The position numbers were made by a program, and so were the translations under genes. From positions 95,579-159,578 of the IMG/VR virus record IMGVR_UViG_3300006735_000013: 64,000 bases of DNA. One strand, 5' to 3'. This stretch comes from a virus. Under the pieces are notes generated by a model. That model saw only the letters and a program-made list of their open reading frames with translations, was not told where the DNA came from and searched no databases. This document shows, piece by piece, positions 1,833 through 7,063 of this stretch. The stretch's first letter is position 1. Every line of letters begins with the position of its first letter.

Positions 1833-2198
1833 CTAATCGGCGGAAGTCGTTTTTTTAGTTGCTCGCTTTCTGCGAGTTGTCGTCTTCTTTGTTGTGGCCT
1901 TTTTCGATGTTGTCTTTTTAGTAGTTCTAGTTTTAGTTGTTTTTGGTGTTTCAACTGTTGGCTCTTCAATCTGAATTGTTTGAAGTTGTGGTTCTGGTGC
2001 TGGCACTACAACCTCTTCGGCAGCTTCTGGTTCCGGTTCTTTGTTTGTGATAACTTCAACTGTTTCGTCTTCGGTTATCTCTTCCCCGGTATTCATATCG
2101 ATCTCGATGACGCCGCGTTTTCTTGCTAATGCTTCACGCTTGGTTGCGTATTTGCTAGCATATTTAGACATTGTCATTCTTTTCTTTCTTTTTCCCAT
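1833..2198 (-). CDS. Hypothetical protein with acidic middle and Lys/Thr-rich (histone H1-like) tail
   Basis: ORF with an AAGGA SD-like sequence; tail KTPKTTKTRTTKKTTSKKATTKKTTTRRKR. Confidence 0.7.
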   Translation of the reverse strand: MGKRKKRMTMSKYASKYATKREALARKRGVIEIDMNTGEEITEDETVEVITNKEPEPEAAEEVVVPAPEPQLQTIQIEEPTVETPKTTKTRTTKKTTSKKATTKKTTTRRKRATKKTTSAD

Positions 2199-2212
2199 TG
2201 TTTTTCCTTTTC

Positions 2213-2242
2213 AAAATAAAAAGCCCCCCTTTGCAGGGGGGC
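2213..2242 (-). terminator. Rho-independent terminator
   Basis: Minus strand GCCCCCCT-GCAA-AGGGGGGC (8-bp stem, GNRA loop) followed by TTTTTATTTT, 10 nt after the stop at 2252. Confidence 0.9.
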
Positions 2243-2251
2243 ATGAAGATT

Positions 2252-2368
2252 TTACTCTTCTTTGGCTTCTTTAGCCTTTGGTTTTTCAGCCTTTGGTTTT
2301 TCAGCCTTCTTGGGGGCTGCCTTTTTAGGGGCAGCTTTTGCTTTTGCTCTTCTTGCTCTAGATGACAT
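2252..2368 (-). CDS. 38-aa Lys/Ala/Pro-rich basic peptide (not in ORF track)
   Basis: MSSRARRAKAKAAPKKAAPKKAEKPKAEKPKAKEAKEE; AGGAG SD upstream; terminator downstream; internal AAPKK and KAEKP repeats. Confidence 0.8.
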   Translation of the reverse strand: MSSRARRAKAKAAPKKAAPKKAEKPKAEKPKAKEAKEE

Positions 2369-2381
2369 GGTTCATTTCTCC

Positions 2382-2972
2382 TTACAGATCTGCAGGAACC
2401 GCAGCTCCATATATGGTAATAAGTAATTTTCCAGCTGTTAAAGTAGCAGCGGTATCATTTTCACCCTGACAAACATAAAGAAATTTATCAGCTACTGCAT
2501 TGTTATCATACAAAACTGATGTGTCTACACCTACGGTGTTTGCGATGCCTGTGATGGCTGCAGTTTGAGTGTCGGCTTGAGTTCCGCCAGCGGCGGTAGG
2601 CTTGCCTACACCATCAACACCAAACTCAAGGTCAATTGTGGTTGTGCCGCCGACGAGAGCTTCTAAAACTTGAACTCTCAGTTCATTGACCACTCCAACT
2701 TTTGCTACTGTTAATTGCCCTATACTAGAGACTGTATCAATAACTCCCATCGCAGCCGTATCACCGTTGCCGCCGCCGTTACCTGATGTGCTAATTGCCG
2801 CCTTAGATGTGCCAAGGTCTAATGCAATTTCTGTGATTATCTGATGACCTTCTCTTTTTTGTGTTGTTGACACAATAGCGTCCTTAATTCCTGCGCCGGC
2901 ACCCAGATCAACCGATTGTCCTTTCTTGTCCAAAGAGAACAGTCTCTTTCTACCTAATCTTCTGCTACCCAT
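2382..2972 (-). CDS. Putative virion (capsid decoration-like) protein with Arg-rich N-terminus
   Basis: Strong AGGAGG SD; first gene after the major capsid; small-residue/beta-rich body ending 'LTAGKLLITIYG'. Function is inferred from position and composition. Confidence 0.5.
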   Translation of the reverse strand: MGSRRLGRKRLFSLDKKGQSVDLGAGAGIKDAIVSTTQKREGHQIITEIALDLGTSKAAISTSGNGGGNGDTAAMGVIDTVSSIGQLTVAKVGVVNELRVQVLEALVGGTTTIDLEFGVDGVGKPTAAGGTQADTQTAAITGIANTVGVDTSVLYDNNAVADKFLYVCQGENDTAATLTAGKLLITIYGAAVPADL

Positions 2973-2978
2973 AATTAT

Positions 2979-3085
2979 TTCCTCCTTATTATGTGGTTAA
3001 CGTTAACGCTTATCATCCACGAAACATAGCCAGCCACCTCGGCTATATCTCTTCAAGGGCCAGTGGCGTTACGACCCAGGAGGAA
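2979..3085 (-). ncRNA. Candidate structured cis-regulatory 5' leader RNA (kissing hairpins plus anti-SD helix)
   Basis: Hairpins GGGUC/GGCCC and GAGAUAUAGCC/GGCUAUGUUUC with complementary loops GCCACU/GGUGGC; 5' UUCCUCCU complementary to the AGGAGGAA SD. Confidence 0.6.
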
Positions 3086-3112
3086 TCAAAGTCACTAATA
3101 AATAGCTTTCAG

Positions 3113-3148
3113 AAAAAAGAAAAGCCCCACCAAGTTAATGATGGGGCT
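3113..3148 (-). terminator. Rho-independent terminator after the major capsid gene
   Basis: Minus strand AGCCCCATC-ATTAACTT-GGTGGGGCT followed by TTTCTTTTTT. Confidence 0.85.
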
Positions 3149-3176
3149 GAATCTTTTTGTTATCGGACTTTAGCTA

Positions 3177-4988
3177 CTAGCTAGAGCCTTCCTCACCTAA
3201 GAGGCCGCGGACGACAACAAGACCGTACATATCAGGTCGTACCATCTTCTTAGCGTAACGGGTCATGACACCCTTACGTGGCACGAAGTCTTCCGTACCA
3301 AAGATGGTTGGTGTTACCTGCAATGGTACGTAAGGAGCGTAGACAAATCCGCTTTCGAGGAATGAACTACCCTTACGGCCAACGAGGAGTACGTTACGCA
3401 AGAAATATGGATCAACGTAAACGTCGAACTTCTTGCTCAAGCTACCAGCCTTGACAGCACCGATGGTGCCGCGGTCCGTATCAGCAGTTACGCTTGCGCG
3501 GAAACCGCTTGTGAACTCAAGGATGTTGGCAACTTCTGGTGAACAAACAACAAAGTTTGCACCACCGCGAAGTGTCTTTCTGTGGATCTGAGCGCTAACG
3601 TCATTGATAGTCTCGATGAGTGTCTCATACCACTCACTGACTGTACCAGTGAAATCAGGAGCTGCGGCTGAAGCGCCAAGCTCATTACCGTTGCTGTCAA
3701 CAAAAAGACCAGGAGCACGACTCCAGTAACGAGTACCAGCGGTTGCACCGTCGATCAATTCGTGAAGAAGTTCACGGTCAATTTCAAGAGCGATCTGCTC
3801 AGAAAGAATACCAGTCAACTCAACCTCAGCGTCAAGGTTGTGATAAGCATTGAGGTCTTGACCCAATTCTGGGGACCACTTTGCCTTCAACTTCTTGGTC
3901 TGAGCTGTAACAGCGATACTGTCAACCTTGATGTCGATCTCAGCGATAGTGTTCTTAGCTACACCAGAACCTTGATTTCCGGTACCTGTATCCGGCTCTT
4001 CAAGGGCCCATGCGTCTCCACCAACAACAGAACCAAGTCCGTTCCCAGCTTGTAATTGATCCTTAAGTGGCACAGTCATGACTGAAGCCTGTGCTGCGAT
4101 CGTCGCGGCGCCGGCGTCATGAATAACAACAACAAGGTGATTTACACCACTAACGGTTTCAACTCTTGTAAGTCTCCTGACAAGTGAGCCATTATCAGTT
4201 GGCAAGGTGCTGAAGTCGATTGCTGCCAATCGACCCAAATCAACTTGAGTATTTGCGCCGCCGGCTGGACCGCCAAAGGCCACGTCCGAGGTCGCTGGGC
4301 CGCCAATTGAACCAGTTGACATAATAACAGAAACTGTACCGCCTGCTGCGAGAATATCCGGGTCGAATCTGATCGCCTTCTTCTGTGCCTGAGTCAATGA
4401 TGAAACTGTTGCACTAGTAACTGCTTCTCCACCTAGTCGGTTGAGCACAGTACCGGAAAGGGCGACGAAGCCGCCGGCCGCGCCAATTGTAGTCGAACCA
4501 GTTGCAGATGTCTGAGAGATACCTGCTTCATAGTGTCCACCAGGGCCTGAAGCGTCTGGTGAGCCGGCAAGATCAACACCGCCAGTCAACTGGCGAGCGA
4601 CAACGTTGCCACCATATATTGAAGCGCCTTTTGCTGCCCCTCCGCGGGCTGATTCGTGTGTAAAGTCAAGGAAGAAGATGAGGCCAGATGGCAAGCTCAT
4701 CGGCTGAACCGAGACAAGATCGTTTGCAATCAATCCACCGAATACACGGCGAACGATTGGGAATGCAACTGCTGCGAAGCCTTCGACATCGCCAGCAGCC
4801 ATAGAAGAAGCCTCACGCAGAAGCTCCTTGGCCTGGTTTTCAAGTAGGACGGCCATCCCCTGCTTTTGTTGTCCTTCGTTGAGTCCGTCGAGAAGACCTG
4901 TCTGCTGCCACTTGTTAAGTAGAGCTTCGCCTTCCTTCTGAACATTACGCTGAACAACACCTTCAGTTAGTCTTTGTAATACAGACAT
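3177..4988 (-). CDS. gp23: Major capsid protein, T4 gp23 family
   Basis: 'LLNKW', 'MAVLLENQ', 'VSVQPMSLPSGLIFFL', 'TKKLKAKWSPELGQDLNAYHNLDAEVEL..ILSEQIALEIDRE', 'SGFVYAPYVPL', 'F.PRKGVMTRYA'. Confidence 0.97.
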   Translation of the reverse strand: MSVLQRLTEGVVQRNVQKEGEALLNKWQQTGLLDGLNEGQQKQGMAVLLENQAKELLREASSMAAGDVEGFAAVAFPIVRRVFGGLIANDLVSVQPMSLPSGLIFFLDFTHESARGGAAKGASIYGGNVVARQLTGGVDLAGSPDASGPGGHYEAGISQTSATGSTTIGAAGGFVALSGTVLNRLGGEAVTSATVSSLTQAQKKAIRFDPDILAAGGTVSVIMSTGSIGGPATSDVAFGGPAGGANTQVDLGRLAAIDFSTLPTDNGSLVRRLTRVETVSGVNHLVVVIHDAGAATIAAQASVMTVPLKDQLQAGNGLGSVVGGDAWALEEPDTGTGNQGSGVAKNTIAEIDIKVDSIAVTAQTKKLKAKWSPELGQDLNAYHNLDAEVELTGILSEQIALEIDRELLHELIDGATAGTRYWSRAPGLFVDSNGNELGASAAAPDFTGTVSEWYETLIETINDVSAQIHRKTLRGGANFVVCSPEVANILEFTSGFRASVTADTDRGTIGAVKAGSLSKKFDVYVDPYFLRNVLLVGRKGSSFLESGFVYAPYVPLQVTPTIFGTEDFVPRKGVMTRYAKKMVRPDMYGLVVVRGLLGEEGSS

Positions 4989-5012: not shown

Positions 5013-6326
5013 TTATTTCTTTATTCCTGCTAATTTTTGCATTCTACTATACAAAGGATTAGCGGCCTTCTGTTTTTGCTCATTACGAGCGCCTACAAGT
5101 AGTGTTGAACGTCTCGAAACTGCTTCGCTAAGAGTTCCCGACTTCTTCTCTGCAGGTGAAGATGTCACTGTCTCTTGGAGCGTCTCAAAGACTATCCTTG
5201 CTTCTTGTACAGTCGTGGCTTTTGAAATAGACTCGACAATTTTCTCTTTTTGTCGCTCATTCAGGGAGGTATTCTCTAAAGCACGGTTAATATACAGCAG
5301 CTTTGCGTTAGAAACATTTGTGGTTTCCAACTTTTCTTGCAAAGTTTCAAATGCTGTAATATATTTATCGTTCTGCGCCTCTAATTTAGTGGCAGCAGAA
5401 GCTAAAGTCTTGTTTTCTTTCTGTAAAGCTGCTACTGTTTTACGCAGCTCTTCGTTTTCTTCTTTTACTTCGCTATCTTGTTCACGCGCAAGGAGCATTT
5501 GCTCATACTCGCGCATAATAGATTCTGGTGTTCCGGCCCATCCGGACTTTTGTGGCTCAAAGTCGACTCTTACAGCCTCATCTATGGCCCAGTCCTCGTC
5601 TAACTCCATCTCTTCAAACATCTCATCCTCTTCGAGGTAGTTTTCACCAATACCAGTATACTCATCCTCTTCTGCTACTTCCATCTCTTCAAGCGCATCG
5701 TCTTCGTCTTCATAGAGAAAGTCGCGAATCGCTTCTGCAAGCTGGTCTTGTGTAATATCGACGTCTACATCTGCGTCAAAATCAGGAGTATCTTGTATAT
5801 CTATGCCAATATCGTCGTCAAAATCGAAGTCGTCTTCAAAATCATCTTCGAAATCATCTTCGAAATCATCCTCAAAATCGTCTTCATCAGTTATATCAAT
5901 ACCTATTTCATCATCAGAAAATTCATCATCGCCGGCAAATACCCCGCCTTGTTCACTTGGAAGCTCCTGTCTTATGCTGTCAAGCTTAATATCCACAATC
6001 TCGTCGTCTGGATCATCTAAGTCAGGGTCGAAGCCGTCTGGTATAGACCCTATCAAACTATCTGCAAACTCTTGTGTTGCGTCTCCCTCTTCAGCAGTTG
6101 GGTCGCCAGCCATGGGATCTGCACCCATACCAGGATCCATTGCCATCGGGTCTTCTTCCATACCCATTCCTAGATCAGCAAAGGGATCCTCTTGCTCTAA
6201 GAGCTTGCCGACCGCTTCCTTTACTTCGTTTGAGTACTTCTCTATCACGAGGTTTTCCGCGTTCTTTAGGGCAGCTTCCTTGAGAGCCTTAGCATCGATA
6301 ATTGCTTTCTCTAGTAGACTTGACAT
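5013..6326 (-). CDS. Prohead scaffold/core protein (gp22-like position)
   Basis: Immediately upstream of the capsid gene; highly acidic, coiled-coil C-half; ends 'RMQKLAGIKK'. Confidence 0.75.
   Translation of the reverse strand: MSSLLEKAIIDAKALKEAALKNAENLVIEKYSNEVKEAVGKLLEQEDPFADLGMGMEEDPMAMDPGMGADPMAGDPTAEEGDATQEFADSLIGSIPDGFDPDLDDPDDEIVDIKLDSIRQELPSEQGGVFAGDDEFSDDEIGIDITDEDDFEDDFEDDFEDDFEDDFDFDDDIGIDIQDTPDFDADVDVDITQDQLAEAIRDFLYEDEDDALEEMEVAEEDEYTGIGENYLEEDEMFEEMELDEDWAIDEAVRVDFEPQKSGWAGTPESIMREYEQMLLAREQDSEVKEENEELRKTVAALQKENKTLASAATKLEAQNDKYITAFETLQEKLETTNVSNAKLLYINRALENTSLNERQKEKIVESISKATTVQEARIVFETLQETVTSSPAEKKSGTLSEAVSRRSTLLVGARNEQKQKAANPLYSRMQKLAGIKK
5828..5888. repeat. Imperfect 12-bp coding tandem repeat (EDDF)n
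   Basis: About 4-5 copies of a TCTTCRAAATCA-like unit on the plus strand, encoding EDDFEDDFEDDFEDDF. Confidence 0.8.
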
Positions 6327-6823: not shown

Positions 6824-7063
6824 TCACTTATATTCGTTTTCTAAACGCTTTTTTTCTTTTGCGTTTGCTATTTTAATTAGTCTCATCTTTTCTAATTTCT
6901 TTTTTCTTCTCTTCACTGAACGCTTGGTGTAGTGTCTGCGTTCGCGAACCTCTTCCAGAATGCCACATTTCTTTACTTTTCTAGTAAACTTTTTTATCAT
7001 TCTTTCGACCTGGCTTTGGTCTGTAATTTTTATTTCTGCATGAACTGGTGTTCTACGTCCCAT
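6824..7063 (-). CDS. rpsU: Phage-encoded ribosomal protein bS21
   Basis: 79 aa, very basic; 'ERMIKKFTRKVKKCGILEEVRERRHYTKRSVKRRKKK' matches the S21 pattern (E..L..FKR.....G.L.E.R.R..Y.KPS..R..K). Confidence 0.85.
   Translation of the reverse strand: MGRRTPVHAEIKITDQSQVERMIKKFTRKVKKCGILEEVRERRHYTKRSVKRRKKKLEKMRLIKIANAKEKKRLENEYK

What the first reader, a model, noticed from the sequence alone, without database searches (positions are those of the whole stretch)
2973..3105. Candidate riboswitch-like leader RNA: kissing loops plus long-range SD sequestration
Seen on the minus strand, between the capsid terminator/CTATTTA motif (3099-3105) and ATG 2972: (i) UUCCUCCU (3085-3078) is perfectly complementary to the SD AGGAGGAA (2986-2979); (ii) hairpin 1 GGGUC-guaacGCCACU-GGCCC; (iii) hairpin 2, an 11-bp stem GAGAUAUAGCC-gaGGUGGCu-GGCUAUGUUUC; (iv) the loops are complementary (GCCACU/GGUGGC, 6 bp); (v) a possible third stem GUGG..CCAC. 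The non-Watson-Crick pairs are G-U on the sense strand, as expected for selection on RNA. Inference: a multi-way junction closed by an anti-SD helix, acting as a translational switch, protein-binding operator or packaging-type RNA. I do not recognise it as a known family.
Basis: partly seen in the sequence, partly recalled or inferred. Interest (0 to 1): 0.85.

Follow-up and report, generated by a model that had tools for sequence, protein, structure and literature searches.

The report
Kissing-loop leader RNA hiding ribosome site
A group of uncultured marine phages keeps a tightly folded ~125-base RNA in front of a probable capsid-cement gene. Its two hairpin loops have co-evolved to pair, and an unchanging CUCCU can cover the gene's ribosome-binding site, so it most likely controls how much of that protein is made.

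Summary
The element is a conserved RNA family, not a chance fold.

- **Conservation:** 64 of 64 distinct leaders found through the downstream protein alone carry it. A gene-blind pattern scan gave 120 more hits, and 119 sit 104-118 nt before an ORF starting M-G-x-R-R-L-G-R-K-R.
- **Covariation:** hairpin 1 and the 5-bp loop-loop helix are paired in 100% of sequences. The kiss occurs as GCCAC/GUGGC, GCCCC/GGGGC, GCGGC/GCCGC and GCCGC/GCGGC. Hairpin 2 covaries at most positions (0 of 500 shuffles match).
- **New here:** a further helix, P1, pairs the transcript's 5' end with the segment after hairpin 2 and covaries strongly. It cannot nest with the anti-SD:SD helix.
- **Anti-SD:** CUCCU and AGGAG never vary, so their pairing is plausible but cannot be tested by covariation.
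- **Databases:** no Rfam 15 match; one copy per genome.
- **Context:** the gene encodes a jelly-roll protein resembling phage capsid cement proteins, in a Far-T4-like phage that also encodes bS21.

Most likely it is a cis-acting translational lock of the MS2 maturation-leader type; its trigger is unknown. This scan noted the same family earlier on other DNA (e1-5660372).

The parts
3113..3148 (-). Intrinsic terminator of the gp23-like major capsid gene (stem 3148-3123, then a T-run)
   Evidence: Terminator scan. Capsid ORF 4988-3177 matches Pfam Gp23 at 1.3e-71.
3099..3105 (-). CTATTTA (family consensus ACTAnTTA), the likely late promoter of the leader transcript
   Evidence: Conserved in all leaders 4-7 nt before P1. 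The same motif lies 15-60 nt upstream of five other start codons in the window. ACTATTTA occurs 9 times against 3.7 expected. Promoter function is inferred; no transcription start data.
3088..3094 (-). P1 5' strand (UGACUUU), pairing with 3010-3004; degenerate in this window
   Evidence: CM alignment gives 6 of 7 pairs here. The window duplex is only -4.2 kcal/mol, against -8 to -27 in relatives. The P1a core is 94% paired across 89 sequences. The inner part covaries, e.g. GCGCGG/UCGCGC and UCCUAG/CUAGGA, and L147 ACUUAAAAUUA/UAAUUUUAGGU.
3078..3085 (-). Anti-SD UUCCUCCU (invariant core CUCCU 3082-3078), directly abutting hairpin 1
   Evidence: CUCCU is present in 64 of 64 leaders found by protein homology only. 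Predicted pairing probability with the SD is 0.99 in the window.
3057..3077 (-). Hairpin 1 (H1/P2): stem 3077-3073 with 3061-3057, plus an invariant G3072-U3062 closing pair. The loop carries the kissing 5-mer GCCAC at 3067-3063.
   Evidence: 100% paired, with 3 of 5 pairs showing double changes.
3021..3051 (-). Hairpin 2 (H2/P3): stem 3051-3041 with 3031-3021, plus an invariant G3040-U3032 closing pair. The loop carries the kissing 5-mer GUGGC at 3037-3033.
   Evidence: 95% paired, with 6 of 8 scored pairs showing double changes. All 12 pairs were counted on A2.
3033..3067 (-). Loop-loop (kissing) helix: 3067-3063 pairs with 3037-3033. This is a pseudoknot.
   Evidence: 100% paired in 64 and in 89 distinct sequences. 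Four complementary variants occur: 40 GCCAC/GUGGC, 16 GCCCC/GGGGC, 7 GCGGC/GCCGC and 1 GCCGC/GCGGC.
2993..3020 (-). Third hairpin (H3): GUGG 3020-3017 with CCAC 2996-2993, enclosing the perfect palindrome GUUAACGUUAAC at 3007-2996. Positions 3010-3004 double as the P1 3' strand.
   Evidence: Family-wide this is a perfect 12-16-nt palindrome in at least four variants, and it is absent from the GCCCC-loop subgroup.
2970..2993 (-). Start hairpin: CAUAAU 2993-2988 with AUUAUG 2975-2970, with the SD in its loop
   Evidence: Duplex energies run from about 0 to -9 kcal/mol, mean -4.7. Variant pairs fit each other, e.g. CCAUUU/AAAUGG, CCGUUUU/AAAAUGG, AUAACAA/UUGUUAU and UUAUUGCA/UGCAAUGG. This is moderate evidence only, because the region is AU-rich.
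2979..2986 (-). Shine-Dalgarno AGGAGGAA (invariant core AGGAG)
2382..2972 (-). 196-aa ORF (MGSRRLGRKRL...): jelly-roll protein, probably a capsid cement or decoration protein
   Evidence: No Pfam or PHROG family. AlphaFold2 model has pLDDT 91. Best structural matches are capsid chains of phage GP4 (Z 7.4) and cyanophage Pam1 (Z 7.2) and the KHP40 cement protein (Z 6.9). The Z scores are middling.
2213..2368 (-). Coupled 38-aa Lys/Ala/Pro-rich ORF (2368-2252) and terminator (2242-2213) that end the transcription unit
   Evidence: Read directly from the sequence.

Best explanation
The stretch is the 5' leader of a separate late transcript, lying between its own promoter-like motif and terminator. 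The transcript encodes a jelly-roll, cement-like capsid protein.

The leader folds into a compact junction. Two adjacent hairpins (H1, H2) lock their loops together through a 5-bp kiss. An invariant CUCCU immediately 5' of H1 pairs with the invariant AGGAG ribosome-binding site about 95 nt downstream, shutting out the 30S subunit.

A second long-range helix, P1, joins the very 5' end of the RNA to the segment just after H2. It is transcribed before the SD emerges. It either delays the closure, leaving a time window for translation as in the MS2 maturation-gene leader, or forms together with the closure as a pseudoknot that tethers the SD region next to the anti-SD.

The net effect is a cap on, or a gate for, translation of this one virion protein.

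- **Shown:** the family, H1, H2, the kiss, P1, invariance of CUCCU and AGGAG, and exclusive linkage to this gene.
- **Inferred:** that CUCCU really pairs with the SD in vivo, that this lowers translation, and how the lock is opened.
For: 1. **Conservation.** All 64 distinct upstream regions retrieved through the protein alone carry the element, down to about 30% protein identity. Of these, 119 are followed 104-118 nt later by an ORF of the same N-terminal type. There is one copy per genome.

2. **Covariation.** On 89 distinct sequences 96.9% of cells are paired, against 85.3% when shuffled. There are 242 double-change cells against 72, and 0 of 500 shuffles reach this. Sliding the partners drops pairing to 26-49% (likewise). 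The kiss has four complementary variants.

3. **Anti-SD and SD.** CUCCU and AGGAG are invariant in the unbiased set. The next pair outward is pairable in 124 of 133 leaders. C goes with G and U with A (odds ratio 12.8, p = 1.7e-4, not corrected for phylogeny). Most SDs read AGGAGA. By textbook knowledge, that A would mismatch the canonical 16S anti-SD but matches the leader's own U.

4. **Energetics.** With the closure enforced, the fold is 2-9 kcal/mol better than any fold leaving both sites free in about 115 of 132 leaders. In the window it is 7.0 kcal/mol better, with P = 0.99.

5. **P1.** It covaries and begins 4-7 nt after the promoter-like motif. RNA starting upstream of the anti-SD is therefore under selection.

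6. **Leader length.** Other genes behind the same motif have 15-60-nt leaders, so this long leader is special to this gene.

7. **Strand.** The invariant G-U closing pairs and many U-G pairs fit only the sense RNA.
Against: - The key helix (CUCCU:AGGAG) shows no covariation because neither side varies. SD invariance is expected anyway.
- In the 16 leaders of the GCCCC-loop subgroup, P1 is so strong (-17 to -27 kcal/mol) that a nested anti-SD closure is never predicted: P is about 0, and it is disfavoured by roughly 6 to 20 kcal/mol. There the model needs an untested pseudoknot.
- P1 strength and anti-SD:SD strength are uncorrelated overall (Spearman 0.02). That fits neither a finely balanced switch nor strict compensation.
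- A cement protein should be needed in many copies, so a repressive leader is not obviously useful.
- The host is unknown. If it is a Bacteroidota bacterium, SD use itself is atypical.
Confidence: 0.6

Rival explanations
1. Autogenous operator. The gene's own product binds the folded leader through its arginine-rich N-terminal arm (MGxRRLGRKRL) when it is not sequestered on capsids. This stabilises the closed form, so synthesis tracks capsid availability, by the same logic as T4 gp32 or ribosomal-protein operons. It is a proposal for the trigger and is compatible with SD occlusion.
For: - The basic arm travels with the RNA in 119 of 120 gene-blind hits, even where the rest of the protein varies from 164 to 300 aa.
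- The arm is a low-confidence appendage on a well-folded jelly roll: pLDDT is 57-66 over residues 1-20.
- Jelly-roll capsid proteins with basic arms that bind RNA are well known (general knowledge).
- First-reader note e1-5667142 proposed the same idea.
Against: - No binding evidence of any kind.
- The arm may simply contact an acidic capsid or scaffold surface, or DNA.
- No correlated change was seen between arm sequence and kissing-loop class (informal).
- Synonymous constraint on codons 2-6 suggests part of the conservation is at RNA or initiation level rather than protein level.
Confidence: 0.2
2. Mainly an mRNA stabiliser. The 5'-terminal P1 helix and the compact kissing-loop fold protect a highly expressed late mRNA from 5'-end-dependent decay. 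CUCCU:SD pairing would be incidental, or would only shield the SD between ribosomes.
For: P1 starts within a few nt of the predicted 5' end in all members. The unit is a separate transcription unit with its own terminator. 5' stem-loops such as ompA and T4 gene 32 are known stabilisers (general knowledge).
Against: A simple 5' hairpin would be enough for that. It does not explain the absolute invariance of CUCCU, the constrained 104-118-nt distance to the start codon, or the start-codon hairpin.
Confidence: 0.12
3. A small-molecule riboswitch. The three-way junction with kissing loops would be an aptamer, as in purine riboswitches, and ligand binding would set whether the SD is free.
For: The architecture (P1, P2, P3, L2-L3 kiss, SD downstream) is that of purine-type translational riboswitches. 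Two mutually exclusive closures exist.
Against: Junction strands are not conserved. J2/3 reads UAGAAAG, UUGAA or CUG, and J3/1 reads AUCAUUGA, GUGA or ACGA. Invariant bases lie in the loops and in CUCCU. A virion structural gene gives no metabolic logic. No Rfam riboswitch matches.
Confidence: 0.05
4. Intermolecular pairing. The complementary loops and the perfect palindrome H3 join two copies of the mRNA into a dimer, which changes translation or stability.
For: Covariation cannot tell intra- from intermolecular kissing. H3 is a perfect palindrome including its centre, in at least four variants, which is more than a hairpin requires. An earlier follow-up on another genome (e1-5660372) raised this.
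Against: The hairpins are only 5-7 nt apart on one molecule, so the intramolecular kiss is kinetically favoured. H3 is missing in the GCCCC subgroup. There are no data.
Confidence: 0.05

Closest known systems
5' leader of the maturation (A-protein) gene of RNA phage MS2 and other Levivirus (Groeneveld 1995; van Meerten 2001; reviewed in PMC4615214)
   Same: A multi-arm 'cloverleaf' is closed by a long-distance pairing between an upstream complementary sequence and the SD (AGGAGGU), roughly 80-100 nt apart. The equilibrium fold is untranslatable. An alternative 5' pairing that forms first gives a short translation window. It controls a virion protein.
   Different: There is no sequence or evolutionary relation. 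This is an mRNA of a large dsDNA phage, not a replicating RNA genome. It has a covarying loop-loop kiss between two arms, which MS2 lacks. Here the alternative helix P1 overlaps the anti-SD by only 0-3 nt rather than sequestering it. Kinetic behaviour is untested.
Purine (add adenine) riboswitch class, RF00167
   Same: A three-way junction of P1, P2 and P3 with a kiss between L2 and L3. Translational control works through SD accessibility, with P1 as the switching helix.
   Different: The kiss here is a 5-bp Watson-Crick helix in 7-9-nt loops. The stems are very unequal (5 bp against 11-12 bp). The junction is not conserved. There is no Rfam hit and no sign of a ligand.
SD-sequestering pseudoknot riboswitches (SAM-II, SAM-V, preQ1-II)
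   Same: If P1 and the anti-SD:SD helix coexist, the SD is buried in an H-type pseudoknot, as in these classes.
   Different: Those are about 50-80 nt with conserved ligand pockets. This one is about 125 nt, has an inserted kissing-hairpin domain and has no conserved pocket. There are no Rfam hits.
T4 translational controls of late or structural genes: the RBS-sequestering hairpins of soc, e and 49, and the gene 32 leader pseudoknot
   Same: A T4-type phage uses mRNA structure at the RBS of a capsid decoration gene (soc). A 5' pseudoknot serves as an autogenous operator (gene 32). This is from general knowledge; gene 32 is also mentioned in PMC10690425.
   Different: In T4 soc the late promoter lies inside the hairpin, so late transcripts escape. 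Here the anti-SD lies downstream of the promoter-like motif. There is no sequence similarity.

Membership tests
Any Rfam 15 family | Covariance-model match at or near the gathering score | tested here: not met
   cmscan with E up to 10 on window 2000-4000 gave nothing inside 2973-3098. Only sub-threshold terminator-like hits fell at 3112-3189. Five divergent relatives searched at E up to 1 gave nothing at their leaders.
MS2-type long-distance SD-occluding leader (mechanistic class, not homology) | An upstream sequence complementary to the SD, about 80-100 nt away, closing a multi-arm junction | tested here: met
   UUCCUCCU at 3085-3078 faces AGGAGGAA at 2986-2979. The MFE fold closes a junction over H1, H2 and H3. 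The CUCCU and AGGAG cores are invariant in 64 of 64 leaders.
MS2-type long-distance SD-occluding leader (mechanistic class, not homology) | Covariation in the long-distance interaction itself | tested here: inconclusive
   The core never varies. The flanking pair shows a C-G versus U-A association (p = 1.7e-4), but this rests on about two independent clades.
MS2-type long-distance SD-occluding leader (mechanistic class, not homology) | A mutually exclusive, earlier-forming alternative structure (kinetic trap) | tested here: inconclusive
   P1 covaries, is transcribed before the SD and cannot nest with the closure. However, it overlaps the anti-SD by only 0-3 nt and might coexist with it as a pseudoknot. 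Folding kinetics cannot be tested here.
Purine-riboswitch-like aptamer | Three-way junction with an L2-L3 tertiary contact | tested here: met
   P1, H1, H2 and the kiss are all supported by pair counts.
Purine-riboswitch-like aptamer | Highly conserved junction nucleotides forming a ligand pocket | tested here: not met
   J2/3 and J3/1 differ in sequence and length between clades. The invariant columns lie in CUCCU, the loops and the closing G-U pairs.
Hammerhead ribozyme (three-way junction with loop-loop contact) | Core CUGANGA ... GAAA ... UH | tested here: not met
   No CUGANGA lies in any junction strand. No Rfam hit.
Autogenous protein operator (T4 gp32 or ribosomal-protein type) | Specific binding of the encoded protein to its own leader | not testable with these tools
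   Only the co-occurrence of the arginine-rich N-terminus with the RNA is available.
Phage capsid cement or decoration protein (for the regulated gene) | Jelly-roll fold similar to solved cement proteins, with the gene next to the major capsid gene | tested here: inconclusive
   The AlphaFold2 model has pLDDT 91. The top matches are 8h89_J (Z 7.4), 7eel_H (Z 7.2) and 7dou_4 (Z 6.9), but Z below 8 is within the range of common folds. Foldseek gave no hit at E of 0.001 or better. The gene lies directly after the gp23-like gene.

The most novel reading that the evidence does not exclude
The leader is a protein- or ribosome-sensing riboregulator of virion assembly. There are two versions:

- The cement-like protein's arginine-rich arm binds the kissing-loop junction. 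Its synthesis is then titrated by free capsid surface. This would be the first autogenous translational circuit for a decoration protein of a dsDNA phage.
- The CUCCUU strand, which resembles the 3' tail of 16S rRNA, makes this mRNA readable only by ribosomes remodelled by the phage's own bS21. That protein is encoded in all five related leader-bearing phage genomes tested.
Probability: 0.2. Interest if true: 0.8.

Novelty: new variant of a known kind. Interest (0 to 1): 0.66.

Why it matters
This is an abundant, uncatalogued RNA fold, with at least 200 instances in marine viral contigs. Its pseudoknot covariation is unusually clean, and it sits on a virion gene of a widespread, uncultured lineage of large T4-type phages. 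Structured leaders that gate translation are well known in bacteria and in RNA phages. Very few are documented for late structural genes of dsDNA phages.

The element is small enough (about 100-125 nt) for probing, toeprinting and structure determination. Its natural 'address' variants of the kiss make a ready-made compensatory-mutation series. If the trigger proves to be the capsid protein itself or the phage-encoded bS21, it would link RNA structure to assembly control or to ribosome takeover.

Tried and rejected
- **Rfam:** searched the window and five relatives; nothing at the leader.
- **Cultured phages:** tblastn of the 196-aa protein against 50,697 phage records found no match. No cultured carrier is known.
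- **Pfam and PHROGs** for the protein: none. Foldseek against PDB gave no hit at E of 0.001 or better.
- **Published catalogue:** I tried to find the motif among the more than 10,000 candidate viral RNAs of PMC10690425, but no supplementary text is held. Prior listing there cannot be excluded. Two literature searches for a described equivalent found none.
- **RNAalifold** on the raw MAFFT alignment found only H1 and H2. P1 and the SD region needed anchored analysis.
- **Rejected readings:** hammerhead or another ribozyme (no core). An internal sigma-70 promoter using the conserved CAUAAU (the -35 is not conserved, and a start there would remove the SD). A T4 prohead-protease site at ITE-I, which lies inside a confident beta-strand. 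A leader peptide (the only AUG gives 4 codons and is not conserved). CUCCU pairing with loop-1 GAGG (conflicts with H1, and the window clade lacks GAGG).
- **Correlation** of P1 strength with anti-SD:SD strength: none overall.
- **Unaligned hit:** one locus of the pattern scan (L117) is not followed by the gene and is not aligned by the CM. I treat it as a chance hit.

Full report
**1. What is in the window**

All features below are on the minus strand. A gp23-like major capsid gene (4988-3177; Pfam Gp23 at 1.3e-71) ends in an intrinsic terminator (3148-3113). CTATTTA follows at 3105-3099. Next comes a 126-nt untranslated stretch, and then ATG 2972 of a 196-aa ORF starting MGSRRLGRKRL.

- Anti-SD UUCCUCCU at 3085-3078 faces SD AGGAGGAA at 2986-2979.
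- Hairpin 1 is 3077-3073 with 3061-3057.
- Hairpin 2 is 3051-3041 with 3031-3021 (11 bp).
- The complementary loops are GCCAC 3067-3063 and GUGGC 3037-3033.
- GUGG 3020-3017 pairs with CCAC 2996-2993.

The MFE fold gives exactly the anti-SD-closed four-way junction: -42.8 kcal/mol and z = -2.73. That alone would be weak evidence.

**2. It is a conserved RNA family tied to one gene**

The 196-aa protein has 161 relatives in metagenomes and none in 50,697 cultured-phage records. Eighty viral-contig loci encoding relatives, at 28-75% identity, were fetched using the protein only. Among those with enough upstream DNA there are 64 distinct leaders, and each carries the element.

The reverse test used a DNA pattern that ignores the gene. 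In 119 of them, an ORF beginning M-[GAS]-x-R-R-[LIMV]... starts 104-118 nt after CUCCU. This held even where the protein body ranges from 164 to 300 aa.

A covariance model built from 42 leaders finds exactly one site in the window (3001-3096, E = 1e-11). It also finds one site in the 159.6-kb viral record that holds the window, and one in each of 99 of 100 sources searched (the window and 99 loci).

Rfam 15 has nothing at the leader, in the window or in five divergent relatives.

**3. Which helices are proven**

Pair counts on the MAFFT alignment of 64 sequences and on the CM alignment of 89 distinct sequences agree.

| Helix | Cells paired | Covariation |
|---|---|---|
| H1 | 100% | double changes at 3 of 5 pairs |
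| Loop-loop kiss | 100% | double changes at 2 of 5 pairs |
| H2 | 95% | double changes at 6 of 8 scored pairs |
| P1a | 94% | double changes at 5 of 7 pairs |

For the whole structure, 96.9% of cells are paired against 85.3% in shuffles. There are 242 double-change cells against 72, and 0 of 500 shuffles reach either value. Sliding the partners by 1-3 columns drops pairing to 26-49%.

The kiss occurs as GCCAC/GUGGC (40), GCCCC/GGGGC (16), GCGGC/GCCGC (7) and GCCGC/GCGGC (1). Both hairpins end in an invariant G-U closing pair. That fits only the sense RNA.

**4.

The first nucleotides after the promoter-like motif (consensus AACUUGA...) pair with the segment just after H2 (...UCAAGUU). Inside this lies a variable inner part that covaries freely:
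- UUCUGGU/ACCAGAG
- GCGCGG/UCGCGC
- GCCCGG/UCGGGU
- UCCUAG/CUAGGA
- GAGUUGUGGU/ACCACAACUC
- L136: CC-AAGAAAU/AUUUCUU-GG
- L147: ACUUAAAAUUA/UAAUUUUAGGU

Cognate inner strands pair at a mean of -2.9 kcal/mol against -0.3 for non-cognate ones.

In the window itself P1 is degenerate. It has 6 of 7 pairs in the CM register and -4.2 kcal/mol.

P1 encloses CUCCU, H1 and H2. P1 and the anti-SD:SD helix therefore cannot both be nested. They are either alternatives or form an H-type pseudoknot.

**5. The anti-SD question**

CUCCU and AGGAG are invariant in all 64 unbiased leaders. The pairing therefore cannot be proven by covariation. Four points support it:
- The neighbouring pair is pairable in 124 of 133 leaders. 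C goes with G and U with A (p = 1.7e-4, not phylogeny-corrected).
- CUCCU has no other conserved complement in the leader.
- Its distance to the start codon is tightly constrained.
- Enforcing the closure improves the predicted energy by 2-9 kcal/mol in about 115 of 132 leaders. The gain is 7.0 kcal/mol in the window, where P(anti-SD:SD) is 0.99.

One point weighs against it. In the 16 leaders with the GCCCC loop, P1 is -17 to -27 kcal/mol. The nested closure is then never predicted, yet CUCCU is still invariant. Either a pseudoknot forms or CUCCU has another role.

By class, mean P1 and anti-SD:SD energies are -18.7 and -8.8 (GCCCC class), -8.7 and -10.3 (GCCAC class), and -4.2 and -13.3 (the window). 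There is no overall correlation (Spearman 0.02).

**6. Further features**

- **Start hairpin.** A weak hairpin (CAUAAU with AUUAUG, 2993-2988 with 2975-2970) places the SD in its loop and the start codon in its stem. Variant start regions have matching upstream partners. The evidence is moderate because the region is AU-rich.
- **Palindrome.** Between P1 and this hairpin the main clade always has a perfect palindrome of 12-16 nt, in at least four variants. Its 5' end overlaps the P1 3' strand. The symmetry extends through what should be the loop. This is unexplained.
- **Codons 2-6.** These are almost fixed at synonymous sites (AGA in 89 of 89 at codon 5), and variation is free from codon 7 onward. 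The constrained RNA region therefore runs to about +18.

**7. Context**

The 196-aa protein has no Pfam or PHROG family. Its AlphaFold2 model (pLDDT 91) is a jelly roll with a poorly ordered basic N-terminal arm. In a Foldseek-independent search, the best structural matches are capsid chains of Ralstonia phage GP4 (Z 7.4) and cyanophage Pam1 (Z 7.2) and the KHP40 cement protein (Z 6.9). These are middling scores, but they agree with the gene's position.

Its stop codon overlaps the SD of a 38-aa Lys/Ala/Pro-rich ORF, followed by a terminator. This is therefore a small separate late transcription unit.

The CTATTTA/ACTATTTA motif lies 15-60 nt before five other start codons. The roughly 125-nt leader is exceptional in this phage.

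The phage is Far-T4-like. Its capsid protein is about 47% identical to that of Flavobacterium phage immuto. It encodes bS21 between the protease and scaffold genes, as do five of five related leader-bearing records. This resembles the freshwater Bacteroidetes bS21 phages of PMC9723584. The host here is unknown.

**8. Mechanism**

The best-supported reading is a cis-acting translational lock. CUCCU sits flush against H1, captures the SD, and closes a junction whose two arms are clamped by the kiss.

An inference from stem lengths: H1 (5 bp) plus the anti-SD:SD helix (7-8 bp) roughly equals H2 (11-12 bp). This would put the two loops level only when the closure is stacked under H1.

P1 forms first during transcription. 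It either postpones the closure or tethers the SD region beside the anti-SD as a pseudoknot. Postponement would give each new mRNA a burst of translation, as shown experimentally for the MS2 maturation-gene leader (PMC4615214).

What opens or sets the lock is unknown. Candidates are folding kinetics alone, the protein's own arginine-rich arm, or bS21-modified ribosomes.

A small-molecule riboswitch is unlikely, because the junction strands are not conserved.

**9. Novelty and verdict**

This is a new RNA family with a distinctive architecture: a three-way junction, a covarying kiss and long-range SD capture. The principle, an SD-occluding leader, is known.

It is absent from Rfam 15. It may be among the unnamed candidates of PMC10690425, which mined the same viral collection, but that could not be checked.

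This scan had already met the family on other DNA (e1-5660372, probably also e1-5679132). That follow-up supplied the MS2 comparison and the dimer idea. I checked the MS2 comparison against the paper and list the dimer idea as a rival.

Noticed in passing
window 6824-7063 (-): A 79-aa ribosomal protein bS21 homologue lies between the prohead protease and scaffold genes (PHROG 21469, E = 3e-6). Pfam Ribosomal_S21 is present above its cut-off in five of five related leader-bearing phage records. Many late genes here carry strong GGAG-type SDs.
   Followed up: partly
window 2252-2368 (-), terminator 2213-2242: An unlisted 38-aa Lys/Ala/Pro-rich ORF (MSSRARRAKAKAAPKK...). Its SD, AAGGAGAA, overlaps the stop codon of the 196-aa gene. 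It is followed by a GC hairpin and T-run terminator. It may be a translationally coupled small basic protein.
   Followed up: no
window, minus strand: 1795, 6383, 14041, 24395, 46180 (and 8328, 9969, 18920): The (A)CTATTTA motif lies 15-60 nt upstream of several start codons. It is strand-biased: 14 of 19 CTATTTA copies are on the coding strand. ACTATTTA occurs 9 times against 3.7 expected. It is a likely late promoter of this phage lineage, and it is conserved as ACTAnTTA in all related leaders.
   Followed up: partly
window 2996-3007 (-); L008 and many other loci: The spacer between P1 and the SD is always a perfect 12-16-nt palindrome, including its centre: GTTATTGCAATAAC, GTTATCGATAAC, GGTTAACGTTAACC or GGTTACGTAACC. 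This is more symmetry than a hairpin needs. It could be an RNA dimerisation site or a DNA site for a dimeric protein.
   Followed up: partly
window 2955-2972 (-) and homologues: Codons 2-6 of the gene family are nearly invariant at synonymous positions (GGA in 104 of 114, AGA in 89 of 89 at codon 5, TTA in 48 of 52). From codon 7 on, synonymous codons vary freely. The nucleotide-level constraint therefore extends about 18 nt into the ORF.
   Followed up: partly
window 5013-6326 (-): A 437-aa, extremely acidic (D/E/F repeat) protein lies between the bS21 and capsid genes, in the scaffold position. It has no Pfam hit. It could be the partner of basic N-terminal arms such as MGSRRLGRKRL.
   Followed up: no
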